Source: Sphyrna mokarran (lineage: Eukaryota). Taken from it: a stretch of 64,000 bases of DNA. The stretch lies in assembly GCA_024679065.1 (NCBI GenBank), contig JAGIQG010000001.1, positions 130,448,001 through 130,512,000 of the forward strand. Reading direction: 5' to 3'. The position numbers were made by a program, and so were the translations under genes. The notes under the pieces are model-generated. The model made no database searches, had not been told where the DNA came from, and was given only the letters and a program-made list of their open reading frames with translations. The stretch's first letter is position 1; each line of letters begins with the position of its first letter. Shown one piece after another: positions 3,415-62,364 of the stretch.

Positions 3415-5500
3415 AAATATATGGCACAGAAAGAGGCCATTCGGCCATTGTGTTGGTTATAAAAAAGCTCAGTAAGCCAATCCCACTTTCAATTCTTGGT
3501 CTGTGGCCCTGTAACTTATAGCAAACACCCTGAAAACATATCCAAGTGCTTAAATATAATGAGGGGTTCTGTCTCCCTCTCCCTTTTAGGCAGAGTTCCA
3601 GATGACCGCCATTCTCTGGGTGAAAATATTTCTCCTCAACTCCCCTGTAAATCTTTTGCTAATTATTTTGAATCTGATTAACTTCCTTGATTATTGATTC
3701 CTCTGGTGAGAGAAATGAATTATATTGTTCCCTCAATACACCTCAATTAAATTTCCACTTGGCCCCTTCTGTTCCAAAGAAAGCAACACGCAGAATGCCT
3801 GAATCGCAGAATTATTGCAGTGCAGAAAGAGGCTATTGGGCTCATCATAGCTGTATAGGCTCTCCAAATCACCAATCACTTAATACCATTCTTCCACCTT
3901 ACCCGTAATCCGGAATGTTCTTTCTCTTCAACTAACAGTTTAGTTCTCTTTTGAATCTCTTGGTTGAACCAGCCTCCTCCATACGCTTAGGCAACACATT
4001 TCGGATCTTAACTGTTCATTGTGAATTTTTGTTTTTTTTTTAAGCAACACAGCACGGGAAACAGGCCCTTCGGCCCAACGAGCCCGCGCTGCCGTCATAC
4101 TATATAGTAGCAAATACATTATCCTATTTTAATATTCCTATATAATAACATATATATTATTCCTAATATGGAAAATTTTCACCATAGGGACAATTTGTTT
4201 CCCAATCAGCCTAAGAGCGAATTTTTGGGTTGTGGGAGGAAACCGGAGTGCCCGGAGAAAACCCACGCAACCACGGAGAGAACGCGCAAACTCCCGCAGA
4301 CACCGGCCCAATTCCAAGTGTCTGCACAGCCACGTCGATAGTCTTTGAGCTGTCATGGTGCCCTTCAGATGGTCCACATAAAGCACTCATTTACGACATG
4401 AGGTACCAGGCACCCCATGAATCAACATCCAAGAGCTGTACCCGCACCACCTGCCAAATGCATGCTCAAAGTATGGACCGAATTACCTGTGGAAAAAAGC
4501 CGTAGTTAATGTTTTGTTACTGTTTATTTGCCATTCACTTAAATTGGTGTCCTGTTGCTGTTAATCATTTCATGAATGGGAGCAATTAATGTCTGTGTGA
4601 AATCTCATTTGTCTTCTCTTCAAGGAAAATATCTTGAGGTCCTGATCCCTAGAACTATTTTCATGAATCTCCCTTCTCCAATACCTTCACATCCTTTTTA
4701 AATGGTGGCACCCAGAACAGATCACAGTGTTCCAGCTGAGGCTGAACCAGTGTCAAATACCAATTCAATGTAACCTCTTTGTTCTTGTATTCAGTGCCCC
4801 TAATTATAAAACCTAGTCTGTGGTTTCCTTATTAATTGCTCTCTCAATCTGTCATAGAATCCTAGAATAACCATAGAGTTGTTACAGCACACAAGGCGAC
4901 CATTTGGTCCATTATATCTGTGCTGGATCTTCTAATGTAGAGATGCTGGCGTTGGACTGGGATAAACACAGTAGAAGTCTCACAACACCAGGTTAAAGTC
5001 CAATAGGTTTATTTGGTAGAAAATGTTTGCTACATATTTCTCCCTTTCACATGGCCGATTCCAATTTTTCATTATAGTTAAAATTCTTCATTCTGGGCAA
5101 CATGTTCATAAATATCACCTCTGTTCTCTGATACGATCACGTCCTGCCTGTAATGTGATCAGAAACAATTAATTCAGCTGTGATCTTATTAGTGTTTCAT
5201 ACAGTTCCAGCATCAATCTCCTTATTCTAACCTCTGTTATCCAAGATATAGAATACAAGTGTTCCATATGCTTCCTCAACCACTTTATGTACCAGTTCTG
5301 CCACTTTCAAGGATCTGTGGGAATGCACACCAAGGTCCCCTGTTCTTCTGTATCTTCCATTTATTATGTATTCACTTTGCCTTGTTTCCCTCCTCAAATA
5401 CATCTCATGATTGAACTCCATTTGCAAATTTTCTGCCCATTTCCTAATCCTAGATCTTTCTTTCTCACTATCAACAACACATTTTTCAACTTCCATTTGT
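3415..5500 (-). mobile_element. Cluster of old CR1-type LINE 3' fragments (interrupted by a SINE at 4032-4498 and a Penelope end at ~4937-5020)
   Basis: CR1 tails (ggccattcggccc). ORF 5227-5496 gives KWAENLQMEFN..DLGVHSHRSLKVA..AYGTL. Confidence 0.75.
4032..4498 (-). mobile_element. Structured-head V-SINE, subfamily B (poly-A tail)
   Basis: V-domain core, CR1-type 3' stem-loop gggctcgttgggccgaagggcctgtttccc and an A-run tail. The extra 5' head is homologous to those at 30741 and 55615. Confidence 0.85.
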
Positions 5501-9967: not shown

Positions 9968-12954
9968 TGTCTCTCTCTCTCTCTGAGTTTCTCTCTCTCT
10001 GATTTTTTTCTATCTCTGTGTCCCTCTCTCACTCTCTCTCTCGCCTGTGTGTCCCCCTCTCTCTCGCCTGTGTGTCCCCCTCTCTCTCGCCTGTGTGTCC
10101 CCCTCTCTCTCGCCTGTGCGTCCCCCTCTCTCTCGCCTGTGCGTCCCCCTCTCTCTCGCCTGTGCGTCCCCCTCTCTCTCTCGCCTGTGTGTCCCCCTCT
10201 CTCTCGCCTGTGTGTCCCCCTCTCTCTCGCCTGTGTGTCCCCCTCTCTCTCGCCTGTGCGTCCCCCTCTCTCTCGCCTGTGCGTCCCCCTCTCTCTCGCC
10301 TGTGCGTCCCCCTCTCTCTCNNNNNNNNNNNNNNNNNNNNNNNNNNNNNNNNNNNNNNNNNNNNNNNNNNNNNNNNNNNNNNNNNNNNNNNNNNNNNNNN
10401 NNNNNNNNNNNNNNNNNNNNTGTGTGTGTGTGTCTCTCCCCCGTGTGTGTGTGTCTCTCCCCCGTGTGTGTGTGTGTCTCTCCCCCGTGTGTGTGTGTGT
10501 CTCTCCCTCCTGTGTGTGTGTGTGTCTCTCCCTCCTGTGTGTGTGTGTGTCTCTCCCTCCTGTGTGTGTGTGTGTGTCTCTCCCTCGTGTGTGTGTGTGT
10601 GTCTCTCCCTCGTGTGTGTGTGTGTGTCTCTCCCTCGTGTGTGTGTGTGTGTCTCTCCCGTGTGGTGTTGTCTCTCCCCGTGTGTGTGTGTGTGTGTCTC
10701 TCCCTCGTGTGTGTGTGTGTCTCTCCCTCCGTGTGTGTGTGTCTCTCTCCCTCGGGTGTGTGTGTGTGTCTCTCCCTCCCGTGTGTGTGTGTGTCTCTCC
10801 CTCGCGGTGTGTGGTGTCTGTTCCCTCGCGTGTGTGTGTGTGTGGTGGTGTCTCTCCCTCGTGTGTGTGTGTGTCTTCCCCCGTGTGTGTGTTGTCTCTC
10901 CCCCGTGTGTGTGTGTGTCTCTCCCCCGTGTGTGTGTGTGTCTCTCCCTCGTGTGTGTGTGTGTGTCTCTCCCTCGTGTGTGTGTGTGTCTCTCTCCTCC
11001 TGTGTGTGTGTGTGTGTCTCTCCCTCGTGTGTGGCTCTCCCTCGTGTGTGTGTGTGTGTCTCTCCTCGTGTGTGTGTGTGTCTCTCCCTCGTGTTGTGTG
11101 TGTGTTCCCCTGTGTGTGTGTGTGTCTCTCCCTCGTGTGTGGTGTGTCTCTCCCTCGTGTGTGTGTGTGTGTCTCTCCCTCGTGTGTGTGTGTCTCTCTC
11201 CCTCGTGTGTGTGTGTGTCTCTCTCCCTCGTGGTGTGTGGTGTCCTCTCTCCCTCCGTGTGTGTGTGTCTCTCTCCCCTCGTGTGTGTGTGTGTGTCTCC
11301 CCTCGCGTGGTGTGTGTCTCTCCCTCTTGTGTGTGTGTGTTTCTCTCCCTCGCGTGTGTGTGTTTCCTTCCCTCGCGTGTGTGTGTGTGTTTCTCTCCCT
11401 CGCGTGTGTGTGTTTCTCTCCCTCGCGTGTGTGTGTGTCTCTCCCTCGCGTGTGTGTGTGTCTCTCCCTCGCGTGTGTGTGTTTCTCTCCCTCGTGTGTG
11501 TGTGTGTGTGTGTTTCTGTCCCTCGCGTGTGTGTGTTTCTGTCCCTCGCGTGTGTGTTTCTGTCCCTCGCGTGTGTGTGTTTCTCTCCCTCGCGTGTGTG
11601 TGTCTCTCTCCCTCGCGTGTGTGTGTCTCTCTCCCTCGTGTGTGTGTGTCTCTCTCCCTCGTGAGTGTGGGTCTCTCTCCCTCGTGTGTGTGTGTGTCTG
11701 TCCCTCGTGTGTGTGTGTCTCTCTCCCTCGTGTGTGTGTGTGTCTCTCCCTCGTGTGTGTGTTGTCTCTCCCTGTGTGTGGTTCTCGTCGTGTGTGTGTC
11801 TCTCCCTCGTGTGTGTGTCTCTCCCTGGTGTGGTGTCTCTCCCTCGTGTGTGTGTTCTCCCTCGTGTGTGTGTGTGTGCTCTCCCTCGTGTGTGTGTGTG
11901 TGTCTCCCCTCGTGTGTGTGTGTCTGTCTCCCTCGGTGTGTGTGTGTCTCTCTCCTCGTGTGTGTGTGTTTCTCTCCCTCGTGTGTGTGTGTGTCTCTCC
12001 CTCGTGTGTGTGTGTCTCTCTCCCTCGTGTGTGTGTGTGTGTCTCTCTCCCTCGCGTGTGTGTGTTTCTCTCCCTCGCGTGTGTGTGTCTCTCTCCCTCG
12101 CGTGTGTGTGTTTCTCTCCCTCGTGTGTGTGTGTCTCTCTCCCTCGTGTGTGTGTGTCTCTCTCCCTCGTGTGTGTGTGTCTCTCTCCCTCGTGTGTGTG
12201 TGTCTCTCTCCCTCGTGTGTGTGTGTCTCTCTCCCTCGCGTGTGTGTGTCTCTCTCCCTCGCGTGTGTGTGTCTCTCTCCCTCGTGTGTGTGTGTGTCTC
12301 TCTCCCTCGTGTGTGTGTGTCTCTCTCCCTCGTGTGTGTGTGTGTCTCTCTCCCTCGCGTGTGTGTTCTCTGTGTGTGTGTGTGTCTCTCCCTCGCGTGT
12401 GTTTCTCTCCCTCGCGTGTGTGTGTGTGTTCTCTCCTCGCGGTGTTGTGTGTTTCTCTCCCTCGCGTGTGTGTGTGTGTTTCTCTCCCTCGCGTGTGTGT
12501 GTTTCTCTCCCTCGCGTGTGTGTGTGTCTCTCCCTCGCGTGTGTGTGTGTCTCTCCCTCGCGTGTGTGTGTTTCTCTCCCTCGTGTGTGTGTGTGTGTGT
12601 GTTTCTGTCCCTCGCGTGTGTGTGTTTCTGTCCCTCGCGTGTGTGTTTCTGTCCCTCGCGTGTGTGTGTTTCTCTCCCTCGCGTGTGTGTGTCTCTCTCC
12701 CTCGCGTGTGTGTGTCTCTCTCCCTCGTGTGTGTGTGTCTCTCTCCCTCGTGTGTGTGTGTCTCTCTCCCTCGCGTGTGTGTGTCTCTCTCCCTCGCGTG
12801 TGTGTGTCTCTCTCCCTCGCGTGTGTGTGTCTCTCTCCCTCGTGTGTGTGTGTCTCTCTCTCCCTCGTGTGTGTGTCTCTCTCTCCCTCGTGTGTGTGTC
12901 TCTCTCTCCCTCGTGTGTGTGTCTCTCTCTCCCTCGTGTGTGTGTGTCTCCTTC

Positions 12955-12987
<33 letters not shown>

Positions 12988-26482: not shown

Positions 26483-26800
26483 AGAACAAAGAACAAAACA
26501 GCACAGGAAACAGGCCCTTCGGCCCAACGAGCCCGCATTGCCACCCCGATGTTCCCACTTCTACCCGCGACCCCTGTCCATGTTTATAGATCTATGGATT
26601 AAAAACCAAATTTGAGACAATTTAGCGAGAATTTGTTTTGCCAATTAGTCTAAGAGCACATCTTTGGGATGTGGGAGGAAACCGAAGCGCTCGGAGAAAA
26701 CCCATGCAAGCACAGGAAGAATGCGCAAACTCCCACAGAGACAGGCCCAAATCCATGTATCTGCACAGCACAGTGATAGTCACTGAGCTGTCGTGTTGCC
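26483..26800 (-). mobile_element. Structured-head SINE subfamily A, copy lacking the head
   Basis: Colinear with 30889-31214. Similarity stops at ggcaacacgac, the head/tRNA-region boundary. Confidence 0.88.
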
Positions 26801-26919
26801 AATCTGCTGATTTCTGGTTTCAAATAAATCCTGGAAAAATAAGCATTTTACATTGTGGCATATAATCAAGGTTATGTGACACTTGCACTGTGCCTCATAC
26901 CTGATGTTTAAAATAAATT

Positions 26920-30574: not shown

Positions 30575-31888
30575 TGCCTGATATAGACAGGATGCAAGAC
30601 TGGGCGGAGAAGTGGCAGATGGACTTCAACGCCGATAAATGTGTAGTGGTCCATTTTGGCAGGAATAATGGGATGAAGGATTACAATATAAAGGGTAGGA
30701 GTCCTAGTTGTGTTGTAGAGCAGAAGGATCTCGGGGTCTGTTTTTATCCTACCGGTGCTTTGGTCCACCTTGTTGTCTAACGAGGGCATACACGCGATGG
30801 GTCGTGAGAGGACTGCTCTTGGATCTTTTTCGAGAGTATCCTACTGCTTCACGTTGTTAGTGTATGCTTGACCTGGACCATCTGATGGGCAACACGACAG
30901 CTCAGTGACTATTGCTGTGCTGTGCAGATATGTGGATTTGGGCCTGTGTCTGTGAGAGTTTGCGCATTCTCCCCGTGATTGCGTGGGTTTTCTCCGGGAG
31001 CTCTGGTTTCCTCCCACATCCCAAAGATGTGCTCTTAGGCTAATTGGCAAAACAAATTCTCCCTAAATTGTCTCAAATTTGGTTTTTAATCCATAGATCT
31101 ATAAATATGGACAGGGATCACGGGTAGAGATGGGAACATTGGGGTGGCGGCGCAGGCTCGTTGGGCCGAAGGGCCTGTTTCCCATGCTGTTTTGTTCTTT
31201 GTTCTTTGTTCTTTGTCTGGGTCCATAGGACTCTTAAATCGGCCTCGCAGGTGGAGGAAGTGGTCAAGAAGGCGTACGGTGTACTGGCCTTCATTTATCG
31301 AGGAATAGACTTTGGGAGTCAGGAAGTAATGATGCAGCTCTATAAGACTCTTGTCAGACCCCAGTTGGAGTATTGTGCGCAGTTCTGGTCACCTCATTAT
31401 AGGAAGGATGTAGAGGCTATTGAGAGAGTTCAGAGGAGATTTACAAGGATGCTGCCTGGATTGGGAGGCAGGCCTTATGAAGATAGGTTGAGGGAGCTGG
31501 GACTCTTCTCACTGGAGAGACGTAGGTTGAGAGGCGACCTGATAGAGGTTTATAAAATGTTGAGAGGAATAGATAGGGTGGACTCTCAGAGACTATTTCC
31601 CCGAGCTGAAATGGTCACTACGAGAGGACACAGATTTAAGGTGCAGGGAAGCAAATACAAAGGAGATGTCAGGGTAGGTTTTTCACTCAGAGGGTGGTGA
31701 GTGAATGGAACCGACTGCCGTCGGAGGTTGTTGAGGCAAACTCACTGGGGTCTTTTAAGAGACTTCTGGATGAGTATATGGAAAGGAATAGGATAGGGGG
31801 TTATAGATAGGTCTGTGGATTGTTAGATGTGATCGGCGCAACTCGTGGGCCAAAGGGCCTGTTTGTGCTGTATTGTTCTATGTTCTAT
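30575..31888 (+). mobile_element. Young CR1 3' fragment split by a SINE at 30741-31214
   Basis: Reads DIDRMQDWAEKWQMDFN..QKDLGV, then after the SINE WVHRTLKSASQVEEVVKKAYG..RPQLEYCAQFWSP. (tgttcta)n tail. Confidence 0.93.
30741..31214 (+). mobile_element. Structured-head V-SINE subfamily A, full length, 5-bp target-site duplication GTCTG
   Basis: gtctg at 30736-30740 and 31215-31219. Order: head, decayed tRNA region, V-domain, CR1-type stem-loop, (gttcttt)n tail. Confidence 0.92.
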
Positions 31889-55614: not shown

Positions 55615-56073
55615 CATCTTCAGATGCTTTGGTCCATCTTGTCTAACAAGGGGCATACACGCGATGGGCTGAGAGAGGGCTGCTCTTGGACTTTTTTTTC
55701 GAGAATATCCTAATGCTTCATGTCGTTAGTGTACACTTGACCTGGACCATTTGATGGGCAACACGACAGCTCAGTGAATATCGCTGTGCTATGCAGATAC
55801 ATGGATTTGGGCCTGTGTCTATGGGAGTTTGTGCATTCTCCCTGTGCTTGCGTGGGTTTTCTCCGGGTGCTCCGGTTTCCTCCCACATCCCAAAGATGTG
55901 CTCTTAGGCTAATTGGCGAAACAAATTCCCCCTAAATTGTCTCAAATTTGATTTTCAATCCATAGATCTATAAACATAGACAGGGATCACAGGTAGAGGT
56001 GGGAACATCGGGGTGGCGGCGCGGGCTCGTTGGGCTGAAGGGCCTGTTTCCCGTGCTGTTTTATTCTTTGTTC
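55615..56073 (+). mobile_element. Structured-head V-SINE subfamily A, near full length
   Basis: Colinear with 30745-31214, including the head. Confidence 0.9.
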
Positions 56074-59935: not shown

Positions 59936-60197
59936 TGACTGTTATCATGCAATATGTTGCCTACTTCAAAAAACAAGTGGGTTTTTTTGTTTGTTCAGGG
60001 GCAGTGGGCATCACTGGCAAGGCCAGCATTCATTTCTTGGATCATTGTATTTAAAAAGCCTTTGGCAGATAATGATAAAAACCCATCTTTACAGATATGG
60101 GAGTCATGATGTAGAGATGCCGATGTTGGACTGGGGTAAGCTCAGTAAGAGGTCTGGCAACATCAATTTTAAATCCAACTGATTTATTTGACAGTAA

Positions 60198-60235
60198 ATC
60201 TGCAAGCTTTCGACTTTCATGTTCGTCAGGCAAAT
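60198..60235 (-). ncRNA. Minimal hammerhead ribozyme motif (second pLTR copy)
   Basis: Reverse complement reads atttgc-CTGACGA-a-cat gaaa gtc-GAAA-gc-T-T-gcagat. Confidence 0.6.
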
Positions 60236-61682
60236 GCAGTGTTCTGGACTGCAACAGCACACATATCAGCACAGACAGTCACAGATTGCTGATTAGAATG
60301 TGAATTCTTACACCTAACCTGCTATTCAAGTCTTAAAGTGGCTAACAATGTGGGTGAAGGGAACCCTGAGCATTGGTTAGAGAGATGTGTATTGTCTCCA
60401 GACAGCATAGTGAGTGAGATTTTTTGCTAACCCAGGCAAGTCATGGGGGTTACAGATAGTGTGACATGAAGCCAAGATCCCTGTTAAGATCATGCTCATG
60501 TGTGCGGAACTTGGCTATCAATCTCTGCTCAGCGGCTCTGTGCCGTCGTGTGTCGTGAAGGCCACCTTGAAGAACGTTTACCCGAAGGTCGGAAGCCAAA
60601 TGCCTGTGACCACTGAAGTGTTCGCCCACAGGAAGGGAACAGTCTTGCCTGGTGATTGTCGAGCGATGTTCATTCATCCGCTGTCGTAGTGTCTGCATGG
60701 TCTCTCCAATGTACCATGCTTTGGGACATTCTTTCTTGCAACGTATTAGGTAGACAACATTGGCTGAGTTGCAAGAGTGTGTACCATCTACCTGGTGAAT
60801 GGTATTCTCACGTTTGATGATGTCATCCATGTCGATGATCCGGCATGTCTTGCAGAGGTTACTGTGGCAGGGTTGAGTGGTATTGTGGTTGCTGTTTTCC
60901 TGAAGGTTGGGTAGTTTGCTGCGAACAATGATCTGTTTGAGGTTGCGCGGTTGTCTGAAGGCAAGAAGTGGGGGGGTGGGAATGGCCCTAGTAAGATGTT
61001 CATTATCATCAATGATATGTTGAAGACTCTGGAGAAGATGTCGTAGCTTCTCCGCTCCGGGGAAGTATTGGACAACAAAGGGTACTCTGTCCATCATGTC
61101 CCGTGTTCGTTTTCTGAGGAGGTCAGTGCGGTTTATCGCTGTGGCACTTCGGAACTGTCGATCGATGAGTCGAGCACCATATCTTATTCTCATGAGGGCA
61201 TCTTTCAGCGTCTGGAGGTGTCTGTCATGATCCTCCTCATCTGAGCAAATTCTGTGTATACGGAGGGCTTGTCCGTAGGGGATGGCCTCTTTAACGTGTT
61301 TAGGGTGGAAGCAAGAGAAGTGGAGCATTGTGAGGTTGTCTGTCGGCTTGTGGTACAGTGAGGTGCTGAGGTGACCGTCCTCGATGGAGATGTGTGTGTC
61401 CAAGAATGCAACTGATTCTGGAGAATAGTCCATGGTGAGTCTGATGGTGGGATGGAACTTGTTGATATCATCATACAGTTGTTTCAATGATTGTTCACCA
61501 TGAGTCCAAAGGAAAAAAATGTCATCGATGTATGTAGTATATAGCCTCGGTTGAAGATCCTGTGCGGTGAAGAAGTCTTGTATGAGACTTGAATAGCAGG
61601 TTAGGTGTAAGAATTCACATTCTAATCAGCAATCTGTGACTGTCTGTGCTGATATATGTGCTATTGCAGACCAGAACACTGC

Positions 61683-61720
61683 ATTTGTCTGATGAAGACG
61701 AAAATCGAAAGCTTGCAGAT
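61683..61720 (+). ncRNA. Minimal type-I hammerhead ribozyme motif in the Penelope pLTR
   Basis: atttgt-CTGATGA-a-gac gaaa atc-GAAA-gc-T-T-gcagat, with a 6-bp stem I. Confidence 0.65.
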
Positions 61721-62364
61721 TTACTATCAAATAAATCGGTTGGATTTAAAATTGGTGTTGCCAGACCTCTTACTCAGATGTGGGGGCCCAGCAACGTCTC
61801 ATCCGTAAGACTTGTGCTCCAGAACTAGTTGTGCCACAACCCAGCTGTCCTTAATAATCAGACATTATCTAATAAAGATGGTGGTGCACAGACTGGTCCG
61901 CTAAATTGGTTGGCCTAATGTGTTTGGTGCCCCACATAATGCAAAGTAACTCTAATATGTGTTTATGAAAAATTTAGTTCTGTTAAGTTGCTGTTGTATC
62001 TTTTCTTGTCTACTCAGTGTATTTGGAACGTTAGGGAAGAATTTTTCATTTTTTTTTAAACAAGCCCTGAATGGAAATTGTATCAACTAAGCTTGCACTA
62101 GTTCCCGTTTAGTTTACCCTAGCAATACTAACATGGTTTTTGGACTTTTTTGAATATATACGTTTAAGTTATTTTCCTTCTATACTCGATACATTCAAGT
62201 ACATGATTTTGACATCATTACTTTCTCCCTTATTCCGAGTTCATCTCTCATTCCAATTTCACTTCTCAATTTGTTATTCGCTATACTATTGCTTTTGGCA
62301 CCTCCCAGTGTGTTATGCATCCTGATATTCTTCCCTAATATTTTCTCTTGGTTCTTACATATGC

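What the first reader, a model, noticed from the sequence alone, without database searches (positions are those of the whole stretch)
30741..30890. SINE family with a decayed Pol III promoter and a ~140-nt covarying stem-loop head of unknown origin
Seen in sequence: three copies (30741-31214 +, 55615-56073 +, 4032-4498 -) carry an extra head in front of the tRNA-derived/V-domain body. Their tRNA region has an altered A box (cagctcagtga) and no recognisable GTTCRANNC B box, unlike the ordinary V-SINEs here. The head folds as nested stems. The outer stem is (t)cagat or caggt pairing with atctga, followed by GGTCCA/TGGACC. The middle stem is gcatacac/gtgtatgc in subfamily A versus gagcat.cattt/aaatg.gtgctt in subfamily B. 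The apical stem is aggactgctcttgga/ttcgagagtatcct in A versus gggtac..ctcttggat/attcatggggtgcct in B. A also has a side hairpin (ccttgtt-gtct-aacgagg). The subfamilies differ strongly in sequence yet keep the pairing. The TSD at 30736/31215 shows the head moves with the element. Inference: a selected RNA structure may replace the lost promoter, for example as a processing signal or ribozyme releasing the RNA from read-through transcripts, or as a captured ncRNA or LINE 5' element. I do not recognise it as a known RNA family.
Basis: partly seen in the sequence, partly recalled or inferred. Interest (0 to 1): 0.72.

Follow-up and report, generated by a model that had tools for sequence, protein, structure and literature searches.

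The report
Selected RNA hairpin in shark LINE
What looked like a small parasitic element with a strange head is the cut-off end of an abundant jumping gene (a CR1 LINE, probably of a shark or ray), whose untranslated tail carries a predicted 130-base RNA hairpin that its lineages have kept pairing while the letters changed, and which likely serves the element's own RNA rather than replacing a lost promoter.

Summary
The hairpin and the dead Pol III promoter are real; the SINE reading is not. The three copies are 5'-truncated insertions of one CR1 LINE clade (46,498 exact hits of a diagnostic 17-mer). 103 of 119 sampled copies with a whole 'head' run on upstream, and long copies carry a TATA 5'UTR, an esterase ORF1 and an EN-RT ORF2. 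The 'head' opens the 3'UTR, ahead of the captured front part of a V-SINE and the LINE's own tail. Its predicted fold is under selection in the source elements: real lineage changes kept it where permuted changes did not (0 of 200-250 in 9 of 12 comparisons); four pairs changed on both sides. No Rfam, HDV-like or hammerhead match. 5' ends are about threefold enriched over the hairpin's foot but at no single base, which explains the SINE-like stubs and argues against a cut site. A splice-acceptor-like site precedes it; no spliced retrocopy was found. Its 5' arm is the element's best complement to its own tail stem-loop, a possible switch. This scan has reported the captured V-SINE before, on other DNA of this genome.

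The parts
30736..30740 (+). left target-site duplication (GTCTG; the last 2 nt also match the element)
30741..31214 (+). 5'-truncated copy of CR1 LINE subfamily A (young); 3'UTR only
30741..30754 (+). pyrimidine tract and acceptor-like site (CAG|G in the family; CCG in this copy)
30751..30769 (+). 5' arm; pairs locally, and in intact family members is the best complement of the tail stem-loop
30762..30767 (+). closing stem, 5' strand (GGTCCA); near invariant
   Evidence: helix 2, 98% paired
30768..30785 (+). side hairpin; lost in the youngest B subfamily
30874..30879 (+). closing stem, 3' strand (TGGACC)
30887..31064 (+). captured front part of a V-type SINE: tRNA-derived region without B box, then V domain; the SINE's own tail is not included
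31146..31214 (+). LINE tail: GGCC-GAAG-GGCC stem-loop (31164-31175) and (TTCTTTG)n-type repeat
31215..31219 (+). right target-site duplication
55621..56073 (+). second truncated copy, older subfamily A; hairpin at 55621-55753 has decayed
4032..4509 (-). third truncated copy, youngest B subfamily; hairpin at 4366-4489
26483..26804 (-). fourth copy, subfamily A, truncated just after the hairpin
25776..25875 (+). fifth copy, subfamily B, tail only
30580..31826 (+). older short-tailed CR1 copy into which copy 30741 inserted (pieces on both sides)

Best explanation
The three copies are 5'-truncated insertions of one CR1 LINE clade, and the 'head' is a predicted ~130-nt hairpin at the start of its 3'UTR, kept pairing across subfamilies, that likely acts in cis on the LINE's own Pol II transcript as a protein-binding or stabilising domain helping that RNA to be copied. 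Shown: LINE anatomy (5'UTR with TATA, ORF1, ORF2, 3'UTR of spacer, acceptor-like site, hairpin, captured V-SINE front, tail); single origin; loss of the B box; lineage changes that preserve the predicted fold; even decay of copies after insertion; a broad excess of 5' ends over the hairpin. Inferred: a foreign block (spacer, hairpin, SINE front) once entered the 3'UTR of a short-tailed CR1, its first ~35 nt probably from an inverted CR1 tail; the Pol III boxes decayed because transcription comes from the 5'UTR; selection acts during transposition, not on the host; the closing stem keeps the acceptor-like AG and the tail-complementary arm folded away; reverse transcriptase tends to drop off or jump at the hairpin's foot, leaving stubs that look like a SINE with a head. 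Odds: identity as LINE 3'UTR about 0.95; fold under selection about 0.85; this cis role rather than its rivals about 0.5.
For: 57 of 60 best hits share upstream sequence; 103 of 119 unbiased copies with a whole head reach 100 nt or more upstream or join family sequence. Near-full-length L148: GDSL esterase, endonuclease and RT domains; TATA 5'UTRs in L148, L218, L243, L339. ORF2 ends of 25 head-bearing copies form one clade, support 0.993, with 14 short-tailed CR1s outside; A and youngest B are 80% alike there (39 of 129 candidates used). Fold z below -3 in 10 of 14 subfamily consensuses, antisense weaker; F from 30 copies z -4.5. Permuting the real substitutions never reached the real energy in 6 of 8 pairs (0 of 250) and 3 of 4 pairs (0 of 200). 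92.7% of cells paired against 35-47% for slid partners; both-side changes CG>UA, AU>GC, UA>AU, UA>CG and a new UA pair from GG. Copy-specific non-CpG change 2.2-2.4% in ORF2 end, tract, hairpin and SINE part alike. The hairpin is kept in every subfamily seen while the neighbouring spacer shrank from ~170 to ~15 nt. 5'-end rate 0.276 per 100 nt at -40..+35 against 0.086 in three flanking bins. Precedent that 3'UTR stem-loops are needed by stringent LINEs: PMC5135761, passages.
Against: No experiment and no probing: the fold is predicted. Most changes are one-sided G-U swaps; pairs with a both-side change (114 of 500 shuffles) and further pair types (337 of 500) do not beat the shuffle, one of the five both-side pairs is an alignment artefact, and the structure was drawn from these sequences. 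The lineages are few and related. Four consensuses fold weakly (C -0.75, G -2.3, D -2.4, two-copy F 0.04); weaker permutation results are 1 and 11 of 250 and 5 of 200. The SINE-derived part is constrained too (0-5 of 150), so selection may act on the whole 3'UTR. No A-to-G excess that would show the duplex in vivo (p 0.37). The -40..+35 bin was chosen after seeing the first sample; in the second sample the excess is spread over the whole hairpin (0.20-0.21 against 0.03-0.09), and 28 deletion-type copies were left out of that count. None of the four long copies translated (L148, L218, L235, L243) has unbroken ORFs. Short-tailed CR1 families in the same genome spread without the hairpin. No binding partner is identified.
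Confidence: 0.55

Rival explanations
1. RNA switch: the hairpin's 5' arm alternates between its local partner and the tail stem-loop that reverse transcriptase is expected to recognise, and so gates when the LINE RNA can be copied.
For: The arm is the best complement of the tail among about 4,900 and 5,100 windows of two full-length copies (0 better; -28 and -25 kcal/mol against mean -9, next best -21). Arm-tail duplex -23 to -30 against -11 to -15 locally in 8 of 8 lineages; the tail-paired form is predicted to dominate in 1 of 8. TT and a C/T-only site that are unpaired locally but pair with the tail are conserved.
Against: Descent explains the match: the first ~35 nt resemble antisense tails of sister CR1 families (2 of 200 shuffles, two tail types). 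The three variable bases facing the tail's G run show no pyrimidine preference (12 of 24, by eye). Local pairing is predicted at 0.68-1.0 in 6 of 8 lineages. The tail is invariant, so no covariation can test it.
Confidence: 0.15
2. The acceptor-like site is functional and the hairpin regulates it: splicing factors bound there help export or 3'-end formation of the intronless LINE RNA, or splicing from an upstream donor makes an inactive RNA.
For: Pyrimidine tract (60-80% Y) and CAG|G in all lineages seen, spared by independent spacer deletions. A donor-like motif near the ORF2 end in 103 of 119 head-bearing copies against 6 of 141 others, 117-262 nt from the AG. A perfect donor in the 5'UTR of the E/Bo lineage. 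The AG is predicted paired in 7 of 8 lineages.
Against: No spliced retrocopy: 0 for two 5'UTR donors in B/E/C, 0 for the A 5'UTR site, 1 hit for the ORF2 donor that is unrelated DNA. 37 true junctions at the acceptor in family A fall 9/10/9/9 over the four registers, no AG excess (counted by eye; 16 of 53 rows dropped as small indels; the pattern sees about a quarter of junction types). The 5'UTR donor is degraded in A (2 of 2). No joint onto the acceptor among the 15 of 50 joints listed in four contig runs (weak). ACAGG may come from the inverted tail, and the ORF2 motif may be only a clade character.
Confidence: 0.17
3. One reading: a non-autonomous element whose head replaces the Pol III promoter by self-cleavage or host processing out of read-through transcripts.
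For: B box lost; 5' ends enriched near the head; all three window copies begin there.
Against: Most copies continue into ORF2; ends spread over at least 75 nt with at most 2 per position; no Rfam hit; HDV-like and hammerhead patterns not met on the sense strand in 8 of 8 lineages.
Confidence: 0.04
4. Passenger: a chance fold in captured DNA, kept because G-U-rich stems tolerate transitions and few master elements were sampled.
For: Most changes are one-sided; two count measures do not beat shuffles; hairpin-less CR1 families thrive.
Against: Permutations keep the same base changes and still lose 9-18 kcal/mol; both-side changes in several helices; hairpin kept while the adjoining spacer was deleted repeatedly.
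Confidence: 0.09

Closest known systems
HER1 CR1 LINE and HE1 V-SINE of sharks and rays (Ogiwara 1999, 2002; originals not held, seen as a table row in PMC3747384 and a passage in PMC4824008)
   Same: CR1-type LINE and V-type SINE in one genome; V domain present; tail stem-loop of CR1 type. Naming the free SINE HE1 and the LINE HER1-like is recalled: no reference sequence was at hand.
   Different: There the SINE borrows the LINE's tail; here the LINE carries the SINE's front part, promoter dead, inside its own 3'UTR, behind a hairpin that neither free SINEs nor short-tailed CR1s in 1.3 Mb of fetched DNA showed.
MER6/MER6A, a Mariner MITE carrying a V-SINE-derived V domain (PMC6887750, abstract seen)
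   Same: Another element took up a V domain and spread it.
   Different: DNA transposon, non-autonomous; the abstract names no upstream RNA hairpin.
3'UTR stem-loops of stringent LINEs: UnaL2, ZfL2, SART1, R2 (PMC5135761, passages)
   Same: cis-acting folded 3'UTR RNA needed for transposition; R2 keeps structure at low sequence identity.
   Different: Those are the terminal recognition elements. This ~130-nt domain lies about 280 nt upstream of a separate tail stem-loop, is of foreign origin and has no test.
Ribozyme-headed retroelements: R2 and its non-autonomous derivatives (PMC3414825), twister in Schistosoma non-LTR elements (PMC8501958); search listings only
   Same: Structured RNA in a non-LTR element.
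   Different: They cut at one site to make a 5' end; here no ribozyme pattern and no sharp end.
Composite SINEs with LINE-derived middles (Kojima 2018, PMC5786205; part 2 of 5 and passages read)
   Same: Modules are swapped between LINEs and SINEs.
   Different: Opposite direction of flow; the text read has no shark case (0 occurrences of 'shark').

Membership tests
tRNA-derived V-SINE (HE1 type) | internal Pol III promoter with B box | tested here: not met
   exact B box (recalled motif) 0 of 74 against 36 of 84 free copies; with one mismatch 0 against 59
tRNA-derived V-SINE (HE1 type) | short non-coding unit with a fixed 5' end | tested here: not met
   103 of 119 copies continue upstream; ends range over 4 kb
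tRNA-derived V-SINE (HE1 type) | V domain behind a tRNA-like region | tested here: met
   aligns with the consensus of the genome's free SINEs; that these are HE1/V is recalled
tRNA-derived V-SINE (HE1 type) | the SINE's own 3' part | tested here: not met
   similarity stops about 180 nt in; the tail is the LINE's
CR1-type LINE | ORF1 with esterase domain | tested here: met
   Lipase_GDSL_2 E 1e-6, below the curated cut-off; Cys/His motif visible
CR1-type LINE | ORF2 with APE endonuclease and RT | tested here: met
   Exo_endo_phos E 7e-11, RVT_1 E 4e-34
CR1-type LINE | frequent 5' truncation, short-repeat tail, no LTR | tested here: met
CR1-type LINE | an intact, autonomous copy | tested here: inconclusive
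   four long copies all have breaks or insertions; young copies 99% alike exist
CR1-type LINE | RT groups with named CR1 references | not testable with these tools
   no Repbase or Dfam; tree uses this genome's copies only
HDV-like ribozyme | nested double pseudoknot with short P3/L3 and P1.1 | tested here: not met
   recalled descriptor 0 of 8 lineages on both strands; Rfam none at E up to 10
Hammerhead ribozyme | core boxes around a three-way junction | tested here: not met
   0 of 8 on the sense strand; one loose antisense pattern in E, not pursued; Rfam none
Self-cleaving or processed RNA (any class) | one sharp 5' end | tested here: not met
   at most 2 ends per position in the 3'UTR
Self-cleaving or processed RNA (any class) | cleavage in vitro | not testable with these tools
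   needs bench work
Used spliceosomal 3' splice site | pyrimidine tract and YAG|G | tested here: met
   (consensus recalled)
Used spliceosomal 3' splice site | spliced products among retrocopies | tested here: not met
Used spliceosomal 3' splice site | junction reads in RNA | tested here: inconclusive
   contigs only, RNA status guessed, 15 of 50 joints shown

The most novel reading that the evidence does not exclude
A vertebrate LINE turned an inverted piece of its own tail into a regulatory RNA switch: the arm either closes the hairpin, leaving the reverse-transcriptase recognition stem-loop free, or pairs with that stem-loop about 400 nt away and hides it, while covering or exposing a splice-acceptor site at the same time. 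This would be a structure-gated control of retrotransposition built from captured parts.
Probability: 0.15. Interest if true: 0.75.

Novelty: new variant of a known kind. Interest (0 to 1): 0.42.

Why it matters
A very abundant LINE clade (at least 46,000 copies) has kept a large folded RNA domain of foreign origin in its 3'UTR through a split that left ORF2 only 80% alike. CR1 3'UTRs are usually thought of as a short recognition tail (recalled). A dated series of subfamilies with stepwise compensatory changes gives ready-made variants for testing what the domain does, and places the unexplained V domain in a Pol II transcript without its promoter. The excess of 5' ends at the hairpin shows how a LINE can shed SINE-like stubs, a trap for repeat annotation and a possible route to new non-autonomous elements.

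Tried and rejected
SINE with a new head: rejected. Known RNA family: Rfam gave nothing on the window at gathering scores, on 30700-31250 at E up to 10, or on the heads of four loci at E up to 5. HDV-like fold, suggested by GGGCAAC after a helix and a CAGA behind a second helix: order of helices does not fit, 0 of 8. An intron spanning both ORFs from a 5'UTR donor: no retrocopy, donor degraded in A. An intron from the ORF2-end donor: none; the reading frame such a splice would add is not conserved between lineages (by eye). Exon trapping of host transcripts: no AG excess; one copy, L170, joins an ORF2 GT site to the acceptor but has 6 nt of microhomology. (0 hits) was too restrictive to weigh. 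ADAR signature: none. Source locus of the hairpin: a profile search of 543 kb and 1.29 Mb of fetched DNA found it only in this clade; genome searches return only the best 40, so a host source is not excluded. Failed attempts: first ORF2 tree (3 sequences), first free-SINE collection (3 copies), query taken from ORF2 instead of ORF1 (mended). Literature searches found no description of this 3'UTR; Repbase, Dfam and both Ogiwara papers could not be seen, and no supplements were read, so it may be deposited there.

Full report
1. The observation. The three copies are at the stated places, and a covariance model built from 17 real copies finds exactly these three in the window. Copies 30741 and 4498 fold much better than shuffles (z -4.4, -3.6; 0 of 200) and better than their antisense strands (-1.8, -0.9); copy 55615 has decayed (z -0.2). 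Rfam has no match. The B box is absent from 74 of 74 such copies and present exactly in 36 of 84 free V-type SINEs. GTCTG flanks copy 30741, which splits an older CR1.

2. It is not a SINE. Of the 60 closest genomic copies, 57 share sequence further upstream; the seven printed read as CR1 ORF2. A diagnostic 17-mer has 46,498 exact hits, control 0. Two samples picked by motifs 3' of the head (89 and 90 copies, 176 after removing duplicates) give 5' ends from the tail to more than 4 kb upstream; 103 of 119 copies with a whole head reach 100 nt or more upstream or join family sequence. L148 is near full length: tandem 5'UTR monomers with a TATA box, ORF1 with a GDSL esterase domain, ORF2 with endonuclease and RT. 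L218, L243 and L339 have related TATA 5'UTRs. None of the four long copies translated is unbroken. The ORF2 ends of 25 head-bearing copies form one clade (support 0.993) apart from 14 short-tailed CR1s; A and youngest B are 80% alike there (39 of 129 candidates). The window itself holds two more copies cut further 3'. That the host is a shark or ray is inferred from the likeness to the HE1/HER1 pair (recalled; listed in PMC3747384, table passage).

3. Anatomy of the 3'UTR. ORF2 stop; a spacer of about 170 nt in the old F and C subfamilies, cut to about 80 nt in A and about 15 nt in B; a pyrimidine tract and CAG|G; the hairpin; about 180 nt from the front of a V-type SINE; a variable linker; the LINE's tail stem-loop and short repeat. 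The SINE's own tail is not included. The first ~35 nt of the hairpin region resemble the antisense tail of sister CR1 families (2 of 200 shuffles for two tail types; not significant against its own tail); the rest has no match outside this clade in 1.29 Mb of fetched DNA.

4. The fold is under selection in the source elements. Fourteen subfamily consensuses were built. Ten fold at z below -3; four are weak (C, G, D and a two-copy F), and F from 30 copies reaches -4.5. When the real substitutions between subfamilies are moved at random among sites with the same base, the fold loses 9-18 kcal/mol on average; 0 of 250 reach the real energy in 6 of 8 pairs (1 and 11 in the others) and 0 of 200 in 3 of 4 (5 in the other). 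On real copies 92.7% of cells pair, against 35-47% for slid partners. Percentage paired, cells with both-side change and covariation score beat 500 of 500 shuffles; the counts of both-side pairs (114 of 500) and of pair types (337 of 500) do not. Four pairs changed on both sides (a fifth is an alignment artefact) and one G-G mismatch became U-A; several went in steps along the B series. The side hairpin was lost in the youngest B. After insertion, copies decay evenly (2.2-2.4% non-CpG in ORF2 end, tract, hairpin and SINE part; 3.1% in the tail) with no A-to-G excess, so selection acts on transposing RNA, not on the host. The SINE-derived part is constrained as well. Caveats: few related lineages, structure drawn from the same sequences, no probing.

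5. Why the window's copies look like a SINE. The rate of 5' ends is 0.276 per 100 nt at -40..+35 around the AG, 0.144 within the hairpin and 0.06-0.11 elsewhere; ratio 3.2 to the three flanking bins, nominal p 9e-5. The bin was chosen after the first sample; in the second the excess covers the whole hairpin (0.20-0.21 against 0.03-0.09). The 28 deletion-type copies were left out; 8 of them also break within -40..+40. No position in the 3'UTR holds more than 2 ends. This fits a polymerase that drops off or jumps at a strong structure (inferred; 5' truncation by incomplete reverse transcription is standard, PMC2881922 passage) and not a cut site or start site. HDV-like and hammerhead patterns are not met.

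6. The acceptor-like site. All lineages keep a 60-80% pyrimidine tract and CAG|G. Candidate donors exist in the 5'UTR of E/Bo and near the ORF2 end (103 of 119 head-bearing copies against 6 of 141 others). Yet no spliced retrocopy was found: 0 and one chance hit, against an estimated 25,000 copies long enough to show the ORF2 junction (estimate). The 37 true junctions at the AG in family A are even over the four registers. The A 5'UTR donor is degraded. Contigs of four runs show no such joint among 15 of 50 listed (weak). The AG is predicted paired in 7 of 8 lineages. A used splice site is unlikely; a masked or factor-binding one remains possible.

7. The arm and the tail. The 19-nt 5' arm is the best complement of the tail stem-loop in two full-length copies (0 of about 4,900 and 5,100 windows better). 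The local fold is predicted to win in 6 of 8 lineages, the tail-paired form in one, neither in one. Descent from an inverted tail explains the match; a switch is the boldest reading left open.

8. Mechanism. Most likely the hairpin is a cis-acting domain of the LINE's Pol II transcript that raises its chance of being copied (RNA stability, packaging or location), and also keeps the acceptor-like AG and the anti-tail arm folded away. Precedent: 3'UTR stem-loops needed by UnaL2, ZfL2, SART1 and R2 (PMC5135761, passages). The step from 'selected fold' to this role is inference. Rivals: splice-factor site (0.17), tail switch (0.15), passenger (0.09), promoter replacement (0.04).

9. What is known. 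HE1/HER1: table row and passage only; the originals were not held. MER6 captured a V domain (PMC6887750, abstract). Kojima 2018 covers LINE parts entering SINEs (part 2 of 5 and passages). Eight literature searches listed no description of this 3'UTR; Repbase and Dfam could not be checked. This scan has reported the LINE with a captured V-SINE at least eight times on other DNA of this genome, once with the acceptor and structured RNA; my reading was written before those look-ups. Added here, as far as the short notes show: the selection test on the hairpin, the truncation zone, the tail complementarity and the negative splice tests.

10. Verdict. Observation partly confirmed; interpretation partly supported. 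New variant of a known kind; interest 0.42.

Noticed in passing
window 26483-26804 (-) and 25776-25875 (+): Two more copies of the same LINE clade, cut further 3' (after the hairpin; tail only).
   Followed up: yes
window 9994-13180: Long minisatellite of 23-25-nt CT/GT units, with a 10-nt-period stretch at its end.
   Followed up: no
window 60141-60333 and 61585-61777: 193-nt inverted arms, 94% complementary, 1,251 nt apart; could be the ends of a DNA transposon.
   Followed up: no
L293 709-871 (+): U2 snRNA match above the Rfam gathering score, probably a retrocopy.
   Followed up: no
L148 2912-3243: 5'UTR made of two ~182-nt monomers, each ending near a TATA box; a run-A contig also joins monomer to monomer.
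   Followed up: partly
L148 4864-5290: About 430-nt insertion in ORF2 of a very high-copy repeat.
   Followed up: no
subfamily F spacer (L271-L300): A perfect 16-nt palindrome about 35 nt after the ORF2 stop, lost in A and B.
   Followed up: no
ORF2 end of the clade, about 90 nt before the stop: Donor-like motif (codons P-S-K-V) in 103 of 119 head-bearing copies and 6 of 141 others; no spliced retrocopy uses it.
   Followed up: yes
L170 1501-1520: One copy joins an ORF2 GT site directly to the acceptor; 6 nt of microhomology make a deletion as likely as splicing.
   Followed up: partly
L092 2666-2830 (+): One copy has the hairpin joined almost directly to the tail, the SINE part deleted.
   Followed up: no
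samples: Many insertions sit directly behind the tail repeat of another CR1 or inside older CR1 copies.
   Followed up: no
runs X1, X5 (organisms A and C): The hairpin's 3' half and start of the SINE part are covered at 80% likeness in two organisms' contigs; organism C shows the older base at one site of the apical stem.
   Followed up: partly
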